DNA from: Escherichia phage vB_EcoS_I14
Reading direction: 5' to 3' (one strand)
Length of the DNA: 64,000 bases
Sequence record: PP892525.1
The translations under genes and the position numbers were made by a program. The stretch's first letter is position 1. Every line of letters begins with the position of its first letter. This document shows positions 34,478-44,692 of this stretch, piece by piece. Under the pieces are notes generated by a model. It had not been told where the DNA came from. It did not search any database and was given only the letters and a program-made list of their open reading frames with translations.

Positions 34478-34549
34478 GCCGTCCTAGTATAATTGGTATT
34501 ATCAAGCCGTAACTGGTGGAAGATGTAGGTTCGAATCCTACGGTCGGTA
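34478..34549 (+). tRNA. tRNA-like element (degenerate; anticodon arm does not fold)
   Basis: canonical T arm GTAGG-TTCGAAT-CCTAC and acceptor GCCGTCC/GGTCGGT with mismatches. Confidence 0.35.
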
Positions 34550-35052
34550 AGAACTGGATAACTGATGCTTTTAACGTAAAAGCTTCCGAGGTTAGTTGCG
34601 CACTGCCTAAACCACGCGGTAGTTGGTTCCAGACTAACCAACCAGTCTGCTGAATAGTTTTATTACGATTTAACTATGTCCAGGCTAAAGAAGAACTTTA
34701 GAAGGTATTTCTAGGATAGTGAAGTTCTTTCTCCATATCGGAGTAGTTTTTCAAGCTATCCACAAAGTGGGAAATGCTGACATGAGAGATGTCACTAATG
34801 GTGCACAATAGCACAGGTAATTCGCGATAACTCCTGTTGAGTAGCAGCAAAAGGCGGGAAGTCATGACCCCAAGCCTAACCGAGTCCTCAATATACCGCA
34901 GGACATAACCACTAAGTCACCCTGACTTAAACTGGAAAATAATAGACGTTACTGTATTTTGTCTTGAAATACTTAATGAGTGAGACTTATGATTCTCCCG
35001 GTATCGTCTGTATTTTTAAGAGTTTTTACGAGAGTTCTTAAAAATACTTAAA

Positions 35053-36205: not shown

Positions 36206-36724
36206 ATGAATGTTGATGAGCTAATACAGCACCTCTTATCTAGGGGATTTGATACAGATAAATATCATTGCTGGTTAAGTCCGGAAGGATGGCTAACAGT
36301 CCCGTTGTATGACTTCTCTGGGATGTTGAGAGGCTATCAGACTTATAATCCTTCTGCTCCCAAAAGGCAGGGTAAGTGCCCATTTGAAGCTAAATATTTT
36401 ACCCATTCTACTACACAGTGTGTATGGGGGCTAGAAACTCTCAATGGAGATGAAAAAGTAGTATTGATTGCTGAATCTGTATTTAAGGCAGTTGCGTTAC
36501 ATAACGCTGGTTATCCCGCCCTAGCAATGTTGGGTTCTTCTCCGGGAAAAGCATTATTAAAGCAACTGAAATTACTACCTTTTAAATTGATAGCTATTGG
36601 TGACAATGATCCCGATGGTGAAAAATTTGCTAGAAAATTAAACGGCTTTGTTTCTCCCGTAGATGTGGATGAGATGTCTACCGAAAACTTGAAAAATTTT
36701 CTTGCTATGAAGCTAAATTTCTAA
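36206..36724 (+). CDS. small Toprim-domain protein
   Basis: VVLIAESVFKA (conserved Glu) and IAIGDNDPDGEKF (DxD); ATG at 36206 with RBS AGGAG. Confidence 0.5.
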   Translation: MNVDELIQHLLSRGFDTDKYHCWLSPEGWLTVPLYDFSGMLRGYQTYNPSAPKRQGKCPFEAKYFTHSTTQCVWGLETLNGDEKVVLIAESVFKAVALHNAGYPALAMLGSSPGKALLKQLKLLPFKLIAIGDNDPDGEKFARKLNGFVSPVDVDEMSTENLKNFLAMKLNF

Positions 36725-36730
36725 TATAAT
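36702..36730 (+). promoter_or_regulatory. T5-type promoter overlapping the 3' end of the Toprim ORF
   Basis: -35 TTGCTA 36702-36707, -10 TATAAT 36725-36730; tRNA-Ser begins 16 nt downstream. Confidence 0.65.
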
Positions 36731-36745
36731 ATATCTTATAAATTC

Positions 36746-36834
36746 GGAAGAATAGCATAACGGTATTGCAGCAGATTGCTAATCTGTCGGTTTGAAATAT
36801 AGCCTTGTGGGTTCGATTCCCACTTCTTCCGCCA
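36746..36834 (+). tRNA. tRNA-Ser (anticodon GCT), long variable arm
   Basis: acceptor GGAAGAA/TTCTTCC, anticodon loop TTGCTAA, T loop TTCGATT, encoded CCA. Confidence 0.8.
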
Positions 36835-36840
36835 GATTTT

Positions 36841-36918
36841 GGTTCTCAAGCTCATATGGTATGAGCACCCGGCTCATAACCGGAAGGTACGTAGGTTCGA
36901 ATCCTCGGGGAGCCACCA
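36841..36918 (+). tRNA. tRNA with anticodon CAT (Met, fMet or Ile-lysidine)
   Basis: anticodon loop CTCATAA; acceptor GGTTCTC/GGGAGCC; T stem imperfect. Confidence 0.6.
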
Positions 36919-37134
36919 ATTAAATAGAGGTCACAAATGGATCTATATATATAGTTTATGTTGTGTTTATCCAAGATAGAGAATACCCGGATGAATATAA
37001 AAAAGGATATAGGTTAGCCAGAGCTACTTCTGAAGCCCAAGCTATGGATAAAGTGGCAGATTATATGATTACAGTAGAAAACGTACACTATATCGACTAC
37101 CTTGAAGCCTCAAAAGTAATTGACTAAACTACAT

Positions 37135-37211
37135 GGGGGTGTAATCGAATTGGCATAGGTACTGGACTTAAAATTCAGGTTTTGTGGGTTCGAATCCCAC
37201 CACCCCTACCA
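37135..37211 (+). tRNA. tRNA with anticodon TAA on a short-variable-loop scaffold
   Basis: acceptor GGGGGTG/CACCCCT, anticodon stem CTGGA/TTCAG with loop CTTAAAA, T arm GTGGG-TTCGAAT-CCCAC, CCA; D arm weak. Confidence 0.55.
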
Positions 37212-37226
37212 AATTAAGGAAATAAG

Positions 37227-37394
37227 ATGTATAGACATCCACCTCCGCCAACACGTCGTTCTAGAGAAGTTATCCTCATGGAATTAACTAAAAACTTCAA
37301 GGCAACTCTTGAAGATAGAGATCTAGGCACGGATGAAGACATTGATTTTATTTGTAGACTACTAAAGATGAAACTGGAGAAACAACATGGCTAA
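37227..37394 (+). CDS. hypothetical small protein (55 aa), below the ORF-track cutoff
   Basis: ATG at 37227 after RBS AAGGAAA; stop overlaps next start (ATGGCTAA). Confidence 0.4.
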   Translation: MYRHPPPPTRRSREVILMELTKNFKATLEDRDLGTDEDIDFICRLLKMKLEKQHG

Positions 37395-37593
37395 TCCTGA
37401 AATTACCGCACAACGTTTCATGCTTAAAGGCATGATTGCTGAAGCAGGTATGACTCAAGAGGTTGCAGACTTTCATAAGCAAATTCTTGATATTATAACT
37501 CTAGCTAAAGAGACTGGAGAAAAAGAGCACGCAGCAGCAATTATGGCTATATCTCTTATTAGTCTAGACTTGGCTGAAGAATCTGGAGTTTAG
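37387..37593 (+). CDS. hypothetical protein (68 aa)
   Basis: ORF. Confidence 0.45.
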   Translation: MANPEITAQRFMLKGMIAEAGMTQEVADFHKQILDIITLAKETGEKEHAAAIMAISLISLDLAEESGV

Positions 37594-37623
37594 CTCCTCC
37601 AAACAGAATTTTTAAAAATGTAC

Positions 37624-37653
37624 TTGCCTTTTGCTTTAAATTTCTGATATAAT
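37624..37653 (+). promoter_or_regulatory. T5-type promoter: -35 TTGCCT, -10 TATAAT
   Basis: 18 bp spacer; RBS AAGGAG before 37684. Confidence 0.6.
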
Positions 37654-37683
37654 AGTTATATAAATTGATGAAGGAGTTAACGA

Positions 37684-37959
37684 ATGCAAAATCGTGTTGT
37701 AGCAGCTGGTATTGAAAGTGCAATCTGTAAATCCTGGGAAGGCTGGGAAGGTGAGATTGAATGGCTTTATTTCTACGATGTAGAACTTCTTCCAGAAGTT
37801 AAAGCTAAATGTGTTGAAGCTGGCATGGCTCCAGATGCAAAAGCTGATATTGATATTTCAATGTCTGAACTTAAAGGTCGTGTAATTACTGTTGGTGATG
37901 AGGGCGAAGAAGTTTTCGAACTTCCGTTCTCCTTAACTGTCACTCCTAAGTTCGACTAA
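37684..37959 (+). CDS. hypothetical acidic protein (91 aa)
   Basis: ORF. Confidence 0.5.
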   Translation: MQNRVVAAGIESAICKSWEGWEGEIEWLYFYDVELLPEVKAKCVEAGMAPDAKADIDISMSELKGRVITVGDEGEEVFELPFSLTVTPKFD

Positions 37960-37995
37960 CTAATACAGCACTGAGCAAGTTCTTTAAAATTTGAC

Positions 37996-38024
37996 TTGCT
38001 CAGTGCCTTAAAACTTGGTATAAT
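37996..38024 (+). promoter_or_regulatory. T5-type promoter: -35 TTGCTC (overlapping TTGACT), -10 TATAAT
   Basis: 17 bp spacer; drives tRNA-Tyr. Confidence 0.6.
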
Positions 38025-38087
38025 AGTTATCTAATTTGGAAACATATTTAAAAGTGTTTAAACTAATATTTGAATACTTTTAAATAT

Positions 38088-38175
38088 GGGCGTTTATTCC
38101 GTAAGTGGTAGCGGAGGGGATTGTAAATCCCTGGTCATTGCGACTCGAGTGGTTCGACTCCATTAACGCCCACCA
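38088..38175 (+). tRNA. tRNA-Tyr (anticodon GTA), long variable arm
   Basis: acceptor GGGCGTT/AACGCCC, anticodon loop TTGTAAA, T loop TTCGACT, CCA. Confidence 0.8.
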
Positions 38176-38192
38176 AATTAAAGGTAAAGGAT

Positions 38193-38684
38193 ATGTATAT
38201 TGATAGGATAATTCAAGAAGCTGCAAATAGGGGTATTATACAGTTAGGTTCACCCGCTGATATAAACAAAGATCTAATATTAGAGAGCCTCACATTTGGT
38301 ACAGCTAACTTTGGTCGCGATAGTAATCGTCGGTATAGTTTGAAGTTATCTGCTCTATCTTTTATCAAGTATAACAAAAGTATTGGAGAAAAATCCAGCT
38401 GTGGTTTTATTTATGCAATAACTAACCCAGCTTGGGATAACTATGTAAAAATTGGTATGTCTTCTGATCCTAAAACAAGATTAGGAAATTACCAGACTTA
38501 CTCTCCTTTACGTGATTATAAGTTAATACATTGGTCATTTTGGTTTAATGCTAGAGAAGCTGAGAAAATGCTTCATAATAGCTTTCCCGAACGGCTTAAT
38601 GAATGGGTAGTATTAGATAGAAGTGTAGATGAAATACTTTCTGAGTTTAATAATCTATCCAATAAACAATTTAAGTCCTGTTAG
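38193..38684 (+). CDS. GIY-YIG motif protein (homing-endonuclease-like)
   Basis: CGFIYAITNPAWDNYVKIGMSS...R...Y matches the GIY-(10)-YIG pattern, unusually in the C-terminal half. Confidence 0.5.
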   Translation: MYIDRIIQEAANRGIIQLGSPADINKDLILESLTFGTANFGRDSNRRYSLKLSALSFIKYNKSIGEKSSCGFIYAITNPAWDNYVKIGMSSDPKTRLGNYQTYSPLRDYKLIHWSFWFNAREAEKMLHNSFPERLNEWVVLDRSVDEILSEFNNLSNKQFKSC

Positions 38685-39739: not shown

Positions 39740-39822
39740 GGGTCGTTAGCCAAGCGGTTTGGCGGCGGATTGTTAATCCGTGTCGAAAGACAACGTAGGT
39801 TCGAATCCTACACGGCCCGCCA
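39740..39822 (+). tRNA. tRNA with anticodon GTT on a long-variable-arm (type II) scaffold
   Basis: acceptor GGGTCGT/ACGGCCC, anticodon stem GCGGA/TCCGT with loop TTGTTAA, 13 nt variable arm GTCGAAAGACAAC, T arm GTAGG-TTCGAAT-CCTAC, CCA. Confidence 0.6.
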
Positions 39823-40692: not shown

Positions 40693-40813
40693 ATTCTAGC
40701 GTGGTTGATGGGGAAACCAGCTTGGCTAGGGCAGAAGCTCGTTCGATTCGAGTGAAAGAATGGTTCTCGTAAGTCCGCACAAGTGATAGCAGGTTCGAGT
40801 CCTGTCTAGAATG
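40693..40813 (+). ncRNA. candidate tRNA-like RNA of about 121 nt with an enlarged central region
   Basis: 7 bp acceptor-like helix ATTCTAG/CTAGAAT, D-arm-like TGGTT...AACCA, canonical T arm GCAGG-TTCGAGT-CCTGT, but about 68 nt where an anticodon arm should be. Confidence 0.35.
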
Positions 40814-40962
40814 ACACTATAAAGTTTACTTATTATGTAGGTTCCGATAGATCGGCGGGTCTATTCTGGCATTTAAGAGAAGTCTCGCAAACTTTTTTGT
40901 CAGCCGTGGGGTTGGTAGCCTCCAGGTGGCCTACACAATAAGTAAATTTATTAAAAATTCAT

Positions 40963-42412: not shown

Positions 42413-42497
42413 GGGGCTATGCTGGAACTGGTAGACAATACGGCCTTAGATTCCGTAGCTTAAATGCGTGGGAGTTCGAGTCTCCCTAGCCCCACCA
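42413..42497 (+). tRNA. tRNA-Leu (anticodon TAG), long variable arm
   Basis: perfect acceptor GGGGCTA/TAGCCCC, anticodon loop CTTAGAT, T arm GGGAG-TTCGAGT-CTCCC, CCA. Confidence 0.75.
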
Positions 42498-42513: not shown

Positions 42514-43098
42514 ATGCAGTTTGTACCAATAAAAGATGCACCAGGGTATTTAGTAAATGAAACAGGGGATGTGTTATCTACATTTACTAATAAAATTTTA
42601 TCAAGATATATAGTTGATGGATACCCTGCTGTAAAATTACAGATAAATGGTAAGCAAACTTCGGTACTTATACACCGAATTATTTCTCATGTATTTGGGG
42701 ACTTATATAATCTATTTGACCCTGAATTAGAAGTAGATCACAAGGATAGAGATAGGCTGAATCTATCTAAAGATAATCTTCAAGTTTTATCAAAAATAGA
42801 ACATCAGAAGAAAACTAATAAAGATAATGGATGGTCTGATAGTAGAGTACCTTGCCCCTTATGTGGAAATCTAATGCTTCAGAGATCAGTAACATGTACA
42901 AATTGTAAGCCAAAACCTACAGGAAAGTTAATAAAACCAGAGTTGTCCTTAGAAGACATAACTGAAAAGGTTTTATTAATGGGGTGGGTTAAGGCAGCTA
43001 AAGATCTAGAAGTATCAGAGTCCACTTTACGTAGACGATATACTAAACTAACCGGATTAAGCCCAAAAGTATTAACAGAACAACGGAAAAGCAAATAG
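42514..43098 (+). CDS. HNH homing endonuclease-like protein
   Basis: HNH motif in VDHKDRDRLNLSKDNLQVLSKIEHQ plus C-terminal Cys cluster; embedded in tRNA array. Confidence 0.7.
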   Translation: MQFVPIKDAPGYLVNETGDVLSTFTNKILSRYIVDGYPAVKLQINGKQTSVLIHRIISHVFGDLYNLFDPELEVDHKDRDRLNLSKDNLQVLSKIEHQKKTNKDNGWSDSRVPCPLCGNLMLQRSVTCTNCKPKPTGKLIKPELSLEDITEKVLLMGWVKAAKDLEVSESTLRRRYTKLTGLSPKVLTEQRKSK

Positions 43099-43178
43099 AC
43101 TGGTGACTAAACCCGATTGGAAATCGGTTGAGTGGTAGCAATACCGCCTTATGGGTTCAACTCCCATCTTTTCCGCCA
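43085..43178 (+). tRNA. tRNA-Ser (anticodon GGA), long variable arm
   Basis: perfect acceptor GGAAAAG/CTTTTCC, anticodon loop TTGGAAA, T arm ATGGG-TTCAACT-CCCAT, CCA. Confidence 0.8.
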
Positions 43179-43285: not shown

Positions 43286-43651
43286 AATCTTGAAGTATGC
43301 CGGAATCGGTAGACGGGGCTGCCTAAAAGGTTTATAGGGAACATCCACTCCCTGCAACATACCTCATAAAGCGGCTGAGATAAATGGTCTATCTCGTGAA
43401 GGTTCAAGTCCTTCTGCTTCTTGATACATCTATGGCTCAAAGTGTAACGGTGCTATTTGATGCTCTTGGTAAGACTTCCCCGACATGCGTTCGGGAGTAA
43501 GCTGCTAAGGCTAGGGTAGAAGAGTTTCTGAGAGCCGCCACAATTGAAAATTCGTACTCGTCTTGAGCTGCGTGCAATAGGAGATAACTTGATTAGTATT
43601 CTAGAACATGCTAATTGAGGAAGGTTTCGCTAACCCTGCGAGTTTTCAATT

Positions 43652-44605: not shown

Positions 44606-44692
44606 GCTGGGTTGGCAGAATGGTTGAATGCACCTGATTTGTAATCAGGAGGAGTAATCCCGTTGCAGGTTCGAATCCTGTGCCCAGCACCA
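44606..44692 (+). tRNA. tRNA-Thr (anticodon TGT) with a 15 nt variable region
   Basis: acceptor GCTGGGT/GCCCAGC, anticodon stem CCTGA/TCAGG with loop TTTGTAA, T loop TTCGAAT, CCA; variable region AGGAG plus TAATCCCGTT. Confidence 0.6.

What the first reader, a model, noticed from the sequence alone, without database searches (positions are those of the whole stretch)
37135..37211. tRNA with Leu-type anticodon TAA on a short-variable-loop scaffold
The anticodon stem (CTGGA/TTCAG) and loop (CTTAAAA) give anticodon TAA, which reads UUA/UUG. Bacterial tRNA-Leu is normally type II with a long variable arm, but this gene has a 5 nt variable loop, a canonical T arm and an encoded CCA. The D arm is poorly paired. 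Either a non-standard tRNA-Leu or a tRNA whose identity differs from its anticodon.
Basis: partly seen in the sequence, partly recalled or inferred. Interest (0 to 1): 0.55.

Follow-up and report, generated by a model that had tools for sequence, protein, structure and literature searches.

The report
Short-arm leucine tRNA of T5-like phage
This is a real, well-conserved phage gene for a leucine tRNA that lacks the long extra arm bacterial leucine tRNAs normally have but keeps the other features the host charging enzyme is known to read; it is unusual in shape, ordinary in job, and belongs to a large, little-described family carried by phages and mobile tRNA gene clusters.

Summary
ARAGORN calls tRNA-Leu(UAA) at exactly 37135-37211, and Rfam's tRNA model scores it 57.4 bits against a cut-off of 29. 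It has a 5-nt variable loop, a canonical T arm and an encoded CCA.

The "poorly paired D arm" is a register error. The arm is a 3-bp stem (AUC/GGU) with an 11-nt loop, GAAUUGGCAUA. All five E. coli tRNA-Leu isoacceptors have that same layout.

The window is a T5-like phage with about 24 tRNA genes. The gene is at least 99% identical in 292 phage records and is annotated tRNA-Leu there. T5 itself lacks it and carries a homing-endonuclease gene at that spot.

Pattern scans show a large family of 77-nt tRNAs in viral contigs and in bacterial tRNA arrays.
- All 20 base pairs covary.
- A73 and U48 are essentially invariant.
- With the anticodon left free, only leucine anticodons occur (112 of 112).

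Best reading: a working type I tRNA-Leu, charged by host LeuRS through A73, A15-U48 and the D/T-loop elbow. It supplies UUA, the commonest leucine codon in this window.

Charging is inferred, not shown. E. coli LeuRS reportedly fails on the Streptomyces type I tRNA-Leu, which has C48. Why the arm was lost is open; escape from defence nucleases is possible.

The parts
37135..37211 (+). Type I (short variable loop) tRNA-Leu(UAA) gene, 77 nt, CCA encoded
   Evidence: ARAGORN; Rfam RF00005 at 57.4 bits; at least 99% identical in 292 phage records annotated tRNA-Leu; family model R1 scores it 88.4 bits
37135..37141 (+). Acceptor stem 5' strand GGGGGUG. It pairs with 37201-37207 (CACCCCU), with a G1.U72 wobble as in E. 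coli leuZ and leuU
   Evidence: Sequence; comparison with E. coli genes; all 7 pairs covary in the family; phage phC17 has U72->C, which restores G-C
37144..37160 (+). D arm: 3-bp stem AUC (37144-37146) / GGU (37158-37160) around the 11-nt loop GAAUUGGCAUA (37147-37157), carrying A14, A15, G18G19 and A20a
   Evidence: Same 3/11/3 layout as all five E. coli tRNA-Leu, with 9 of 11 loop bases identical to leuQ and leuU; D-stem pairs covary, 96.9% paired; phC17 variant G24->A turns U.G into U-A
37162..37178 (+). Anticodon arm: stem CUGGA/UUCAG, loop CUUAAAA, anticodon UAA at 37169-37171, A36-A37-A38 motif
   Evidence: Sequence; ARAGORN puts the anticodon at position 35; the loop matches the MiaA/TrmL determinants described in PMC4615657
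37179..37183 (+). Variable loop GUUUU, 5 nt, ending in U48. E. coli tRNA-Leu has 13-15 nt here
   Evidence: Segmentation; the U48 column is invariant in 97 of 97 family members although it was not part of the search pattern
37184..37200 (+). T arm GUGGG-UUCGAAU-CCCAC
   Evidence: Sequence; 99% paired with covariation
37208..37211 (+). Discriminator A73 followed by encoded CCA
   Evidence: Sequence; A73 in 79 of 79 viral and 72 of 73 genome-borne unique well-folded members, not part of the pattern
36702..36730 (+). Promoter-like site (TTGCTA-17-TATAAT) upstream of tRNA-Ser(GCU), tRNA-Ile2(CAU), a 54-aa ORF and tRNA-Leu(UAA). It is the likely start of the polycistronic precursor (inferred)
   Evidence: Consensus scan only; T5 annotates promoter P15b at the equivalent place
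42413..42497 (+). Companion phage tRNA-Leu(UAG), ordinary type II (13-nt variable arm), directly after tRNA-Ala. In Spc35-like relatives a type I tRNA-Leu(UAG) occupies this position

Best explanation
It is a functional elongator tRNA-Leu(UAA) of a T5-like phage, built on a class II (leucine-type) core from which the long variable arm is absent. It is probably transcribed with neighbouring tRNAs and small ORFs and cut out by host RNase P and 3' processing, with the CCA already encoded. Host LeuRS then most likely charges it with leucine. E. coli LeuRS reads neither the anticodon nor the long arm. It reads A73 and the shape of the D/T-loop corner: the A15-U48 pair, G18G19 and A20a placed in an 11-nt D loop, G18:U55, G19:C56 and U54:A58. 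All of these are present. Host MiaA and TrmL (and presumably MnmEG) should modify the CUUAAAA loop, because their determinants lie in that loop. The tRNA then decodes UUA, and UUG by wobble, adding to the single-copy host leuZ tRNA for an AT-rich phage in which UUA is the commonest leucine codon. Shown here: the gene, its fold, its conservation, family-wide covariation, the restriction to leucine anticodons, the presence of the identity nucleotides, and the codon usage. Inferred: transcription, processing, modification, leucylation and use on the ribosome.
For: The gene is called by ARAGORN and Rfam. The layout 7-2-3-11-3-1-5-7-5-[variable]-5-7-5-7-A-CCA is shared with E. coli leuZ, leuQ, leuW, leuX and leuU; only the variable region differs, at 5 nt against 13-15 nt. 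The published E. coli leucine identity set is A73, A15-U48, G18G19, A20a and the D/T tertiary pairs, and the long arm and anticodon are not required (PMC9976931; PMC6614811 introduction). The gene is at least 99% identical in 292 phage records, while flanking DNA is mostly 80-95% identical. The three natural substitutions seen either preserve or improve pairs or match the family consensus. In it, 95.5% of cells pair and 20 of 20 pairs show compensatory changes; slid registers give 33-47%. RNAalifold predicts the same cloverleaf independently. A73, U48 and G13 are invariant although not in the pattern. With a free anticodon, only leucine anticodons appear: TAG 67, TAA 26, CAA 11, CAG 4, AAG 2, GAG 2. 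In Spc35-like relatives a type I tRNA-Leu(UAG) sits where this phage and T5 have a type II tRNA-Leu(UAG). UUA makes up 25.7% of leucine codons (22.7 per 1000) in the window's ORFs, and CUA 21.2%. These are the two codon sets served by the two phage tRNA-Leu genes. TrmL methylates an E. coli tRNA-Leu with the whole variable arm deleted as well as the wild type (PMC4615657).
Against: There are no expression, charging or decoding data for this gene. E. coli LeuRS could not leucylate the natural type I tRNA-Leu(CAA) of S. coelicolor, and those authors describe EcLeuRS as charging only type II tRNA-Leu (PMC6614811). That tRNA has C48 rather than U48, so it lacks the E. coli-type 15-48 pair. T5 itself lacks the gene, having hegA in its place, so the gene is dispensable. 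Folded alone, the sequence does not give a cloverleaf as the minimum-energy structure (z = -1.22), which is common for tRNAs. The family model ranks some non-Leu type I phage tRNAs above type II tRNA-Leu, so body similarity alone does not prove isotype.
Confidence: 0.8

Rival explanations
1. It is the same tRNA-Leu, but the missing long variable arm is an adaptation for escaping host tRNA-targeting defence nucleases or toxins that recognise or cut the long arm or body of host tRNA-Leu. On this reading the phage copy keeps UUA decoding going when host tRNA-Leu is destroyed. This would add to the best explanation rather than replace it.
For: T5 tRNAs are proven anti-defence spares. [quoted passage not shown] In this window the Thr(UGU) and Asn(GUU) genes, the PARIS-targeted isoacceptors, also have remodelled variable regions, here lengthened. 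Type I tRNA-Leu is enriched in phage and mobile tRNA arrays across phyla, while tRNA-Ser and tRNA-Tyr in the same arrays keep long arms.
Against: I found no report of a defence system that targets tRNA-Leu(UAA) or the tRNA-Leu variable arm. The Gifsy-1 terminase cuts tRNA-Leu(CAG) in the anticodon region (PMC11610961). The same phage keeps a type II tRNA-Leu(UAG). T5 lives without the gene. Codon supply explains its presence without invoking defence.
Confidence: 0.2
2. It is a tRNA whose amino-acid identity differs from its anticodon, being charged with something other than leucine and so recoding UUA/UUG.
For: The scaffold lacks the arm typical of bacterial tRNA-Leu. The anticodon shares A35, A36 and A73 with tRNA-Phe.
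Against: The scaffold carries only leucine anticodons across 112 unique members, although LeuRS does not read the anticodon. A73, A15-U48, G18G19 and A20a are all present. It has no G3.U70 (Ala), no long arm (Ser), no G-1 (His) and no G34, U20 or U59 (Phe), read from the sequence against the identity rules in PMC9976931. UUA is the commonest leucine codon in the phage's own genes, so recoding it would be very damaging.
Confidence: 0.03
3. It is a decaying or non-functional tRNA-like remnant, or serves only as an RNA-processing signal in the polycistronic transcript.
For: The gene is dispensable in T5. T5's tRNA region holds several tRNA-like stable RNAs of unknown function. Phage APCEc03 has a broken chimeric copy.
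Against: It is identical in about 290 genomes whose flanks diverge by 5-20%. All stems covary across a wide family, with intact anticodon loop, identity nucleotides and CCA. Its Rfam score is typical of the other phage tRNAs in the window.
Confidence: 0.04

Closest known systems
E. coli tRNA-Leu(UAA), leuZ, and the other four E. coli type II tRNA-Leu isoacceptors
   Same: Leucine anticodon UAA; A73; G1.U72 (as in leuZ and leuU); U8; 3-bp D stem with an 11-nt D loop, GAAUUGGCAUA against GAAU[U/C]GGUAGA; U48; 5-bp anticodon and T stems; A36A37A38 loop motif; CCA encoded.
   Different: The variable region is 5 nt instead of 13-15 nt, so there is no extra arm. C32 replaces U32. The stem sequences are unrelated. 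The T loop is UUCGAAU against UUCAAGU.
Type I tRNA-Leu(CAA) of Streptomyces coelicolor (Fan et al. 2019, NAR 47:6369, PMC6614811)
   Same: A bacterial-world tRNA-Leu with a 5-nt variable loop that coexists with type II tRNA-Leu and a single LeuRS. Five nucleotides including position 48 were found to be the shortest variable loop giving good charging.
   Different: It is chromosomal and not phage-borne, and its anticodon is CAA. Its variable loop is ACAGC with C48, whereas this family has invariant U48. It is charged by an adapted Streptomyces LeuRS and not by E. coli LeuRS.
Short-variable-loop tRNA-Leu(UAG) in mycobacterial tRNA gene clusters (Behra et al. 2019, BMC Evol Biol 19:124, PMC6582537)
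   Same: A tRNA-Leu with a short variable loop encoded in a mobile-looking tRNA cluster that also holds an HNH endonuclease, alongside a normal long-arm chromosomal isoacceptor. The genome hits found here have the same kind of context.
   Different: That paper notes it in one sentence only, with no analysis of identity elements, family or function. The host phylum differs.
Animal mitochondrial tRNA-Leu(UUR)
   Same: Type I tRNA-Leu reading UUR, with A73 and A14 as determinants.
   Different: It has a degenerate, floppy mitochondrial structure and is recognised by a dedicated mitochondrial LeuRS. There is no Leu-type 11-nt D loop and no relation in sequence.
T5 anti-defence tRNAs (tRNA-Lys, tRNA-Thr and tRNA-Asn against PARIS; tRNA-Tyr against retron-Eco7 and Septu)
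   Same: They lie in the same tRNA cluster of the same phage group, and they are phage copies that differ structurally from the host tRNA.
   Different: For those tRNAs a nuclease, a cleavage site and a rescue experiment are known. For tRNA-Leu(UAA) none is known.

Membership tests
tRNA (Rfam RF00005), canonical elongator cloverleaf | Score above the curated gathering threshold over the full-length model | tested here: met
   57.4 bits against 29, model positions 1-71 of 71; ARAGORN call
tRNA (Rfam RF00005), canonical elongator cloverleaf | Four helices supported by covariation, plus conserved U8, A14, G18G19, U33, purine 37 and the T loop UUCGA | tested here: met
   20 of 20 pairs show compensatory change and 95.5% of cells pair; RNAalifold gives the same structure; the conserved bases are read from the sequence
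tRNA (Rfam RF00005), canonical elongator cloverleaf | Expressed, processed and aminoacylated | not testable with these tools
   No RNA or charging data are available
E. coli-type tRNA-Leu (substrate of gammaproteobacterial LeuRS) | Discriminator A73 | tested here: met
   A at 37208; A73 in 79 of 79 viral family members; the determinant is described in PMC9976931
E. coli-type tRNA-Leu (substrate of gammaproteobacterial LeuRS) | A15-U48 pair, A14, and G18G19 and A20a positioned in an 11-nt D loop on a 3-bp D stem | tested here: met
   D loop GAAUUGGCAUA and U48 at 37183; same layout as leuZ, leuQ, leuW, leuX and leuU; U48 invariant in 97 of 97. The nucleotides are present, but the tertiary pairs themselves are inferred
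E. coli-type tRNA-Leu (substrate of gammaproteobacterial LeuRS) | Leucine anticodon | tested here: met
   UAA at 37169-37171
E. coli-type tRNA-Leu (substrate of gammaproteobacterial LeuRS) | Long variable arm (type II, more than 10 nt) | tested here: not met
   5 nt, GUUUU. The arm is characteristic of the class but is reported not to be an identity determinant for E. coli LeuRS. The tRNA is therefore filed as a leucine tRNA but not as a type II tRNA-Leu
E. coli-type tRNA-Leu (substrate of gammaproteobacterial LeuRS) | Leucylation by host LeuRS | not testable with these tools
   A caution: EcLeuRS did not charge the S. coelicolor type I tRNA-Leu
Type I tRNA-Leu (S. coelicolor tRNA-Leu(CAA); mitochondrial tRNA-Leu) | Variable loop of 4-5 nt together with a leucine anticodon | tested here: met
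Type I tRNA-Leu (S. coelicolor tRNA-Leu(CAA); mitochondrial tRNA-Leu) | Common descent with the Streptomyces gene | not tested
The published variable loop ACAGC (C48) differs from GUUUU (U48)
Phage and tRNA-array type I tRNA-Leu family (delimited here) | 77-nt layout 7-2-3-11-3-1-5-7-5-5-5-7-5-7-A-CCA with D loop GAAUNGGYAUA, U48, A73 and a leucine anticodon | tested here: met
   The window gene is a member and scores 88.4 bits with model R1, which included it. The family is defined
Suppressor or recoding tRNA | An anticodon complementary to a stop codon, or an identity set that conflicts with the anticodon | tested here: not met
   Anticodon UAA reads the sense codons UUA/UUG, and the identity nucleotides agree with leucine
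Anti-defence spare tRNA (as T5 tRNA-Lys against PARIS and tRNA-Tyr against retron-Eco7) | The host counterpart is cleaved by a defence nuclease and the phage copy resists | not testable with these tools
   No tRNA-Leu(UAA)-targeting system was found in the papers read

The most novel reading that the evidence does not exclude
Loss of the long arm is adaptive rather than neutral. On this reading, T5-like and many other phages, and mobile tRNA arrays across bacterial phyla, carry a dedicated lineage of type I tRNA-Leu. It keeps just the LeuRS determinants (A73, A15-U48, the Leu-type D loop) and sheds the arm so as to escape host nucleases or toxins, or other factors that recognise class II tRNAs. 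This would be part of a wider remodelling of variable arms in this phage, where Leu is shortened and the PARIS-targeted Thr(UGU) and Asn(GUU) are lengthened. As a corollary, E. coli LeuRS, described as charging only type II tRNA-Leu, would have a natural type I substrate.
Probability: 0.2. Interest if true: 0.7.

Novelty: new member of a known kind. Interest (0 to 1): 0.45.

Why it matters
Textbooks, and the one experimental paper on the topic, say bacterial tRNA-Leu is type II and that E. coli LeuRS charges only type II. Here an E. coli/Salmonella phage carries a strongly conserved type I tRNA-Leu with every E. coli leucine determinant except the arm. It belongs to a family of hundreds of phage-borne and array-borne genes that carry only leucine anticodons. 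This gives a natural, easily cloned substrate for testing what LeuRS really needs. It explains why automated annotation is right to call these genes tRNA-Leu. It also raises a testable question in the active field of tRNA-targeting phage defence: whether changing the variable arm is a general way for phages to escape. For genome annotation the practical message is that the gene is an ordinary functional tRNA-Leu and not a pseudogene or a recoding device.

Tried and rejected
- Single-sequence folding gave a non-cloverleaf minimum-energy structure with z = -1.22. This was rejected as uninformative, because the family alignment gives the cloverleaf with covariation.
Sliding partners by one column drops pairing to 45.8%, and the 3-bp register matches E. 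coli tRNA-Leu.
- A home-made isotype test used a covariance model of the family against E. coli and phage tRNAs. All E. coli tRNA-Leu (49-57 bits) outrank the E. coli Met, Gly, Gln and Cys genes sampled (up to 48.6 bits). Phage type I Glu, Lys and His score higher (57-62 bits) because they pay no insertion penalty. The test is only weakly supportive and inconclusive as an isotype test.
- I looked for classical T5 literature on this tRNA. T5 proper lacks the gene, so the 1980s T5 tRNA work does not cover it.
- Full-text searches for "type I tRNALeu" and variants, and for short variable loop plus phage, found only the Streptomyces paper and one sentence on a mycobacterial tRNA cluster. Nothing was found on phages. 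The library is limited to open-access papers, so absence is weak evidence.
- The Gifsy-1 terminase was considered as a tRNA-Leu-targeting threat. It targets tRNA-Leu(CAG) in the anticodon region, so it does not explain a short-arm UAA isoacceptor.

Full report
**What is there.** The window comes from a T5-like phage (Demerecviridae). Positions 36400-38200 match 443 phage records and are 97.9% identical to Escherichia phage IME178. ARAGORN finds 24 tRNA genes on the + strand between 35053 and 45691, including tRNA-Leu(taa) at exactly 37135-37211, 77 nt. Rfam's tRNA model matches 37135-37208 full length at 57.4 bits against a threshold of 29, in the middle of the range for the other phage tRNAs.

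**The D arm.** The correct register is a 3-bp stem, A10-U25, U11.G24 and C12-G23, around an 11-nt loop, GAAUUGGCAUA. I fetched the five E. coli K-12 tRNA-Leu isoacceptor genes and segmented them. All have the layout 7-2-3-11-3-1-5-7-5-[13-15]-5-7-5-7-A-CCA, with D loop [G/A]AAU[U/C]GGUAGA and a U as the last variable nucleotide. The phage gene has the same layout and 9 of 11 D-loop bases, plus U48, A73 and the G1.U72 of leuZ. It differs only in having 5 variable nucleotides instead of 13-15. It is therefore a leucine-type (class II) core without the extra arm.

**Conservation in close relatives.** The 77 nt are at least 99% identical in 292 phage records and 95-99% identical in 33 more. They are annotated tRNA-Leu wherever tRNAs are annotated. 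The surrounding 1.8 kb is mostly only 80-95% identical. Three natural substitutions were seen.
- G24->A turns U11.G24 into U-A.
- U72->C turns G1.U72 into G-C.
- C20->U gives the family's commoner D-loop base.

All three fit the proposed structure.

**T5 itself lacks the gene.** In AY543070 the stretch between tRNA-Ile2(CAU) and ORF T5.074 holds hegA, the HNH homing endonuclease F-TflIV. In the window the same stretch holds a 54-aa ORF and this tRNA. Homology resumes within the last seven bases of the tRNA, CCTACCA. T5 has only the type II tRNA-Leu(UAG). The gene is therefore dispensable, and this explains why the classical T5 tRNA literature does not mention it.

**A wider family.** More distant hits are also 77-nt tRNA-Leu genes, with anticodon UAG or UAA. 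They occur in Salmonella phage Spc35, Obesumbacterium phage Ob_P, Vibrio phages JSF12 and PG07 (PG07 has both anticodons, close together) and Aeromonas phage LAh_8. In Spc35 the type I tRNA-Leu(UAG) lies directly after tRNA-Ala, where this window and T5 have a type II tRNA-Leu(UAG). This is a natural swap of the two forms in phages of the same hosts.

I then scanned with a pattern that fixes only part of the D loop, U33-U34-A35-R36-A37, the T loop TTCGA, and the spacing that a short variable loop implies. Among unique sequences that fold in the 77-nt layout:
- A73 is present in 79 of 79 viral and 72 of 73 genomic members.
- U48 is present in all.
- G13 is present in 79 of 79 viral members.
- CCA is encoded in 70 of 79 viral but only 29 of 73 genomic members.

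None of these positions was in the pattern.

On the unfiltered set of 97 unique phage sequences (alignment A4), 95.5% of cells form standard pairs and all 20 pairs show compensatory changes. The covariation score is 0.85 against 0.235 for shuffles. Registers slid by 1-3 columns pair at 33-47%. The 3-bp D stem pairs at 96.9%. RNAalifold predicts the same cloverleaf on its own.

**Identity.** I repeated the viral scan with the anticodon left free. Among 112 unique well-folded members the anticodons are TAG 67, TAA 26, CAA 11, CAG 4, AAG 2 and GAG 2. All are leucine anticodons. The TAA and TAG counts are inflated by the earlier scan, but the 19 others are all leucine too.

LeuRS does not read the anticodon, so a scaffold that carries any leucine anticodon and no other is what a LeuRS-defined identity predicts. 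[quoted passage not shown] Neither the anticodon nor the long arm is required, and truncated tRNA-Leu lacking both arms is still charged (Giege and Eriani 2023, PMC9976931; also the introduction of PMC6614811). All these nucleotides are present here.

Determinants for the other anticodon-independent synthetases are absent: G3.U70 for Ala, a long arm for Ser and G-1 for His. The Phe set (G34, U20, U59) is not met. The reading that identity differs from the anticodon is therefore unlikely.

**Likely job.** The window is 38.7% G+C. In 59 long ORFs, UUA is the commonest leucine codon (25.7% of leucine codons, 22.7 per 1000) and CUA is second (21.2%). From my own knowledge, both are minor codons in E. 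coli, which has a single tRNA-Leu(UAA) gene. The phage's two tRNA-Leu genes, UAA and UAG, serve exactly these codons.

The loop CUUAAAA has the A36A37A38 motif and pyrimidine 34 that MiaA and TrmL use. TrmL methylates an E. coli tRNA-Leu with the whole variable arm deleted as well as the wild type, and it tolerates changes at position 32 (PMC4615657). A promoter-like site at 36702-36730 matches T5's annotated P15b. This suggests one precursor covering tRNA-Ser, tRNA-Ile2, the ORF and tRNA-Leu. That step is inferred.

**What argues for caution.** Nothing here shows expression or charging. Fan et al. 2019 (PMC6614811) found that E. coli LeuRS could not leucylate the natural type I tRNA-Leu(CAA) of S. 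coelicolor, and they describe EcLeuRS as charging only type II. That tRNA has the variable loop ACAGC, with C48, so it lacks the E. coli-type 15-48 pair that this family conserves without exception. The result may therefore not transfer. Those authors also found five nucleotides including position 48 to be the shortest variable loop compatible with good charging, which is the size seen here.

**Why no arm?** This is unknown.

- A defence-escape reading is plausible by analogy. [quoted passage not shown] T5 tRNA-Tyr resists retron-Eco7 and Septu, which cut the long variable loop of host tRNA-Tyr.
- In bacterial assemblies the type I tRNA-Leu genes sit in dense tRNA arrays of up to 24 tRNAs in 8 kb. 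In those arrays tRNA-Ser and tRNA-Tyr keep long arms, so the shortening is specific to Leu, the one class II tRNA whose synthetase does not need the arm.
- However, I found no nuclease known to target tRNA-Leu(UAA). The Gifsy-1 terminase cuts tRNA-Leu(CAG) in the anticodon region.
- This phage also keeps a type II tRNA-Leu(UAG).

**Comparison with what is known, and novelty.** The gene itself is already annotated as tRNA-Leu in hundreds of records. Type I tRNA-Leu is known in animal mitochondria and in S. coelicolor. A short-loop tRNA-Leu(UAG) in a mycobacterial tRNA cluster was noted in one sentence (PMC6582537). In the searchable library, the phrase "type I tRNALeu" and its variants occur in the Streptomyces paper alone, and that paper never mentions phages. 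I found no description of the phage family, its invariant A73 and U48, or its restriction to leucine anticodons. The library is limited, so this may exist elsewhere. I rate the finding a new member of a known kind, of moderate interest.

**Verdict.** It is a non-standard but most likely ordinary-acting tRNA-Leu(UAA). I put 0.8 on its being a functional leucine tRNA charged by host LeuRS, and about 0.2 on the short arm additionally being an anti-defence adaptation.

Noticed in passing
window 44606-44692 (+): tRNA-Thr(UGU) here is 87 nt with a 15-nt variable region (AGGAGUAAUCCCGUU), a 3-bp D stem, an 11-nt D loop (GAAUGGUUGAA) and A73. This is a class II-like scaffold on a threonine anticodon. 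T5's tRNA-Thr is an unrelated 75-nt type I gene. The long form is at least 95% identical in 93 phage records and is annotated tRNA-Thr. tRNA-Thr(UGU) is a prime target of the PARIS nuclease AriB.
   Followed up: partly
window 39740-39822 (+): tRNA-Asn(GUU) is 83 nt with a 13-nt variable region (GUCGAAAGACAAC) and G73. It cannot be aligned to T5's 78-nt tRNA-Asn. Relatives occur in 637 phage records, including T4-like and jumbo phages. tRNA-Asn(GUU) is the other extra PARIS target. In this phage Leu is shortened while Thr and Asn are lengthened.
   Followed up: partly
window ~36920-37204 versus T5 AY543070 36379-37062 (L248): T5 carries the HNH homing endonuclease gene hegA (F-TflIV) exactly where this phage has a 54-aa ORF and tRNA-Leu(UAA). 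Homology resumes in the last 7 nt of the tRNA. The tRNA gene or its edge may be the homing site.
   Followed up: partly
window 36841-36915 (+): Rfam finds a tRNA here (40.3 bits) that ARAGORN misses. It corresponds to T5's tRNA-Ile2(CAU), which relatives annotate as tRNA-Met. Conversely, ARAGORN's tRNA-Tyr (38088-38175) and tRNA-Ser(gga) (43085-43178) do not reach Rfam's gathering score.
   Followed up: no
L006 (Escherichia phage APCEc03, KR422353.1 about 1293-1370): A chimeric tRNA-Leu gene. Its 5' part, up to the D loop, is identical to the UAA type I gene. The rest is identical to the Spc35-type UAG type I gene but keeps a TAA anticodon loop. The stems do not pair and ARAGORN calls nothing. 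It looks like recombination between the two paralogues.
   Followed up: partly
L128-L247 (bacterial genome and MAG contigs): Type I tRNA-Leu genes lie in dense tRNA arrays of up to 24 tRNAs per 8 kb, often with two to four type I Leu isoacceptors side by side, while tRNA-Ser and tRNA-Tyr in the same arrays stay long (83-95 nt). Several arrays are in complete Flavobacteriaceae chromosomes (Psychroserpens, Aquimarina, Winogradskyella, Kordia, Dokdonia). Only 29 of 73 encode CCA, against 70 of 79 in viral contigs.
   Followed up: partly
IMG/VR and genome loci, e.g. L129, L141, L146: A second sub-class has one extra nucleotide between the acceptor and D stems (...U GA AGG GAAUUGGCAUA CCU...), so it is 78 nt. 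It still has A73, U48 and a 5-nt variable loop (NGCUU).
   Followed up: no
window 34478-34552 (+); also 40746-40816 and 43291-43360: The family covariance model gives weak tRNA-like hits (31.8, 18.9 and 11.3 bits) outside the called tRNA genes. The first corresponds to a hit inside T5's annotated stable 'RNAX', upstream of tRNA-Arg.
   Followed up: no
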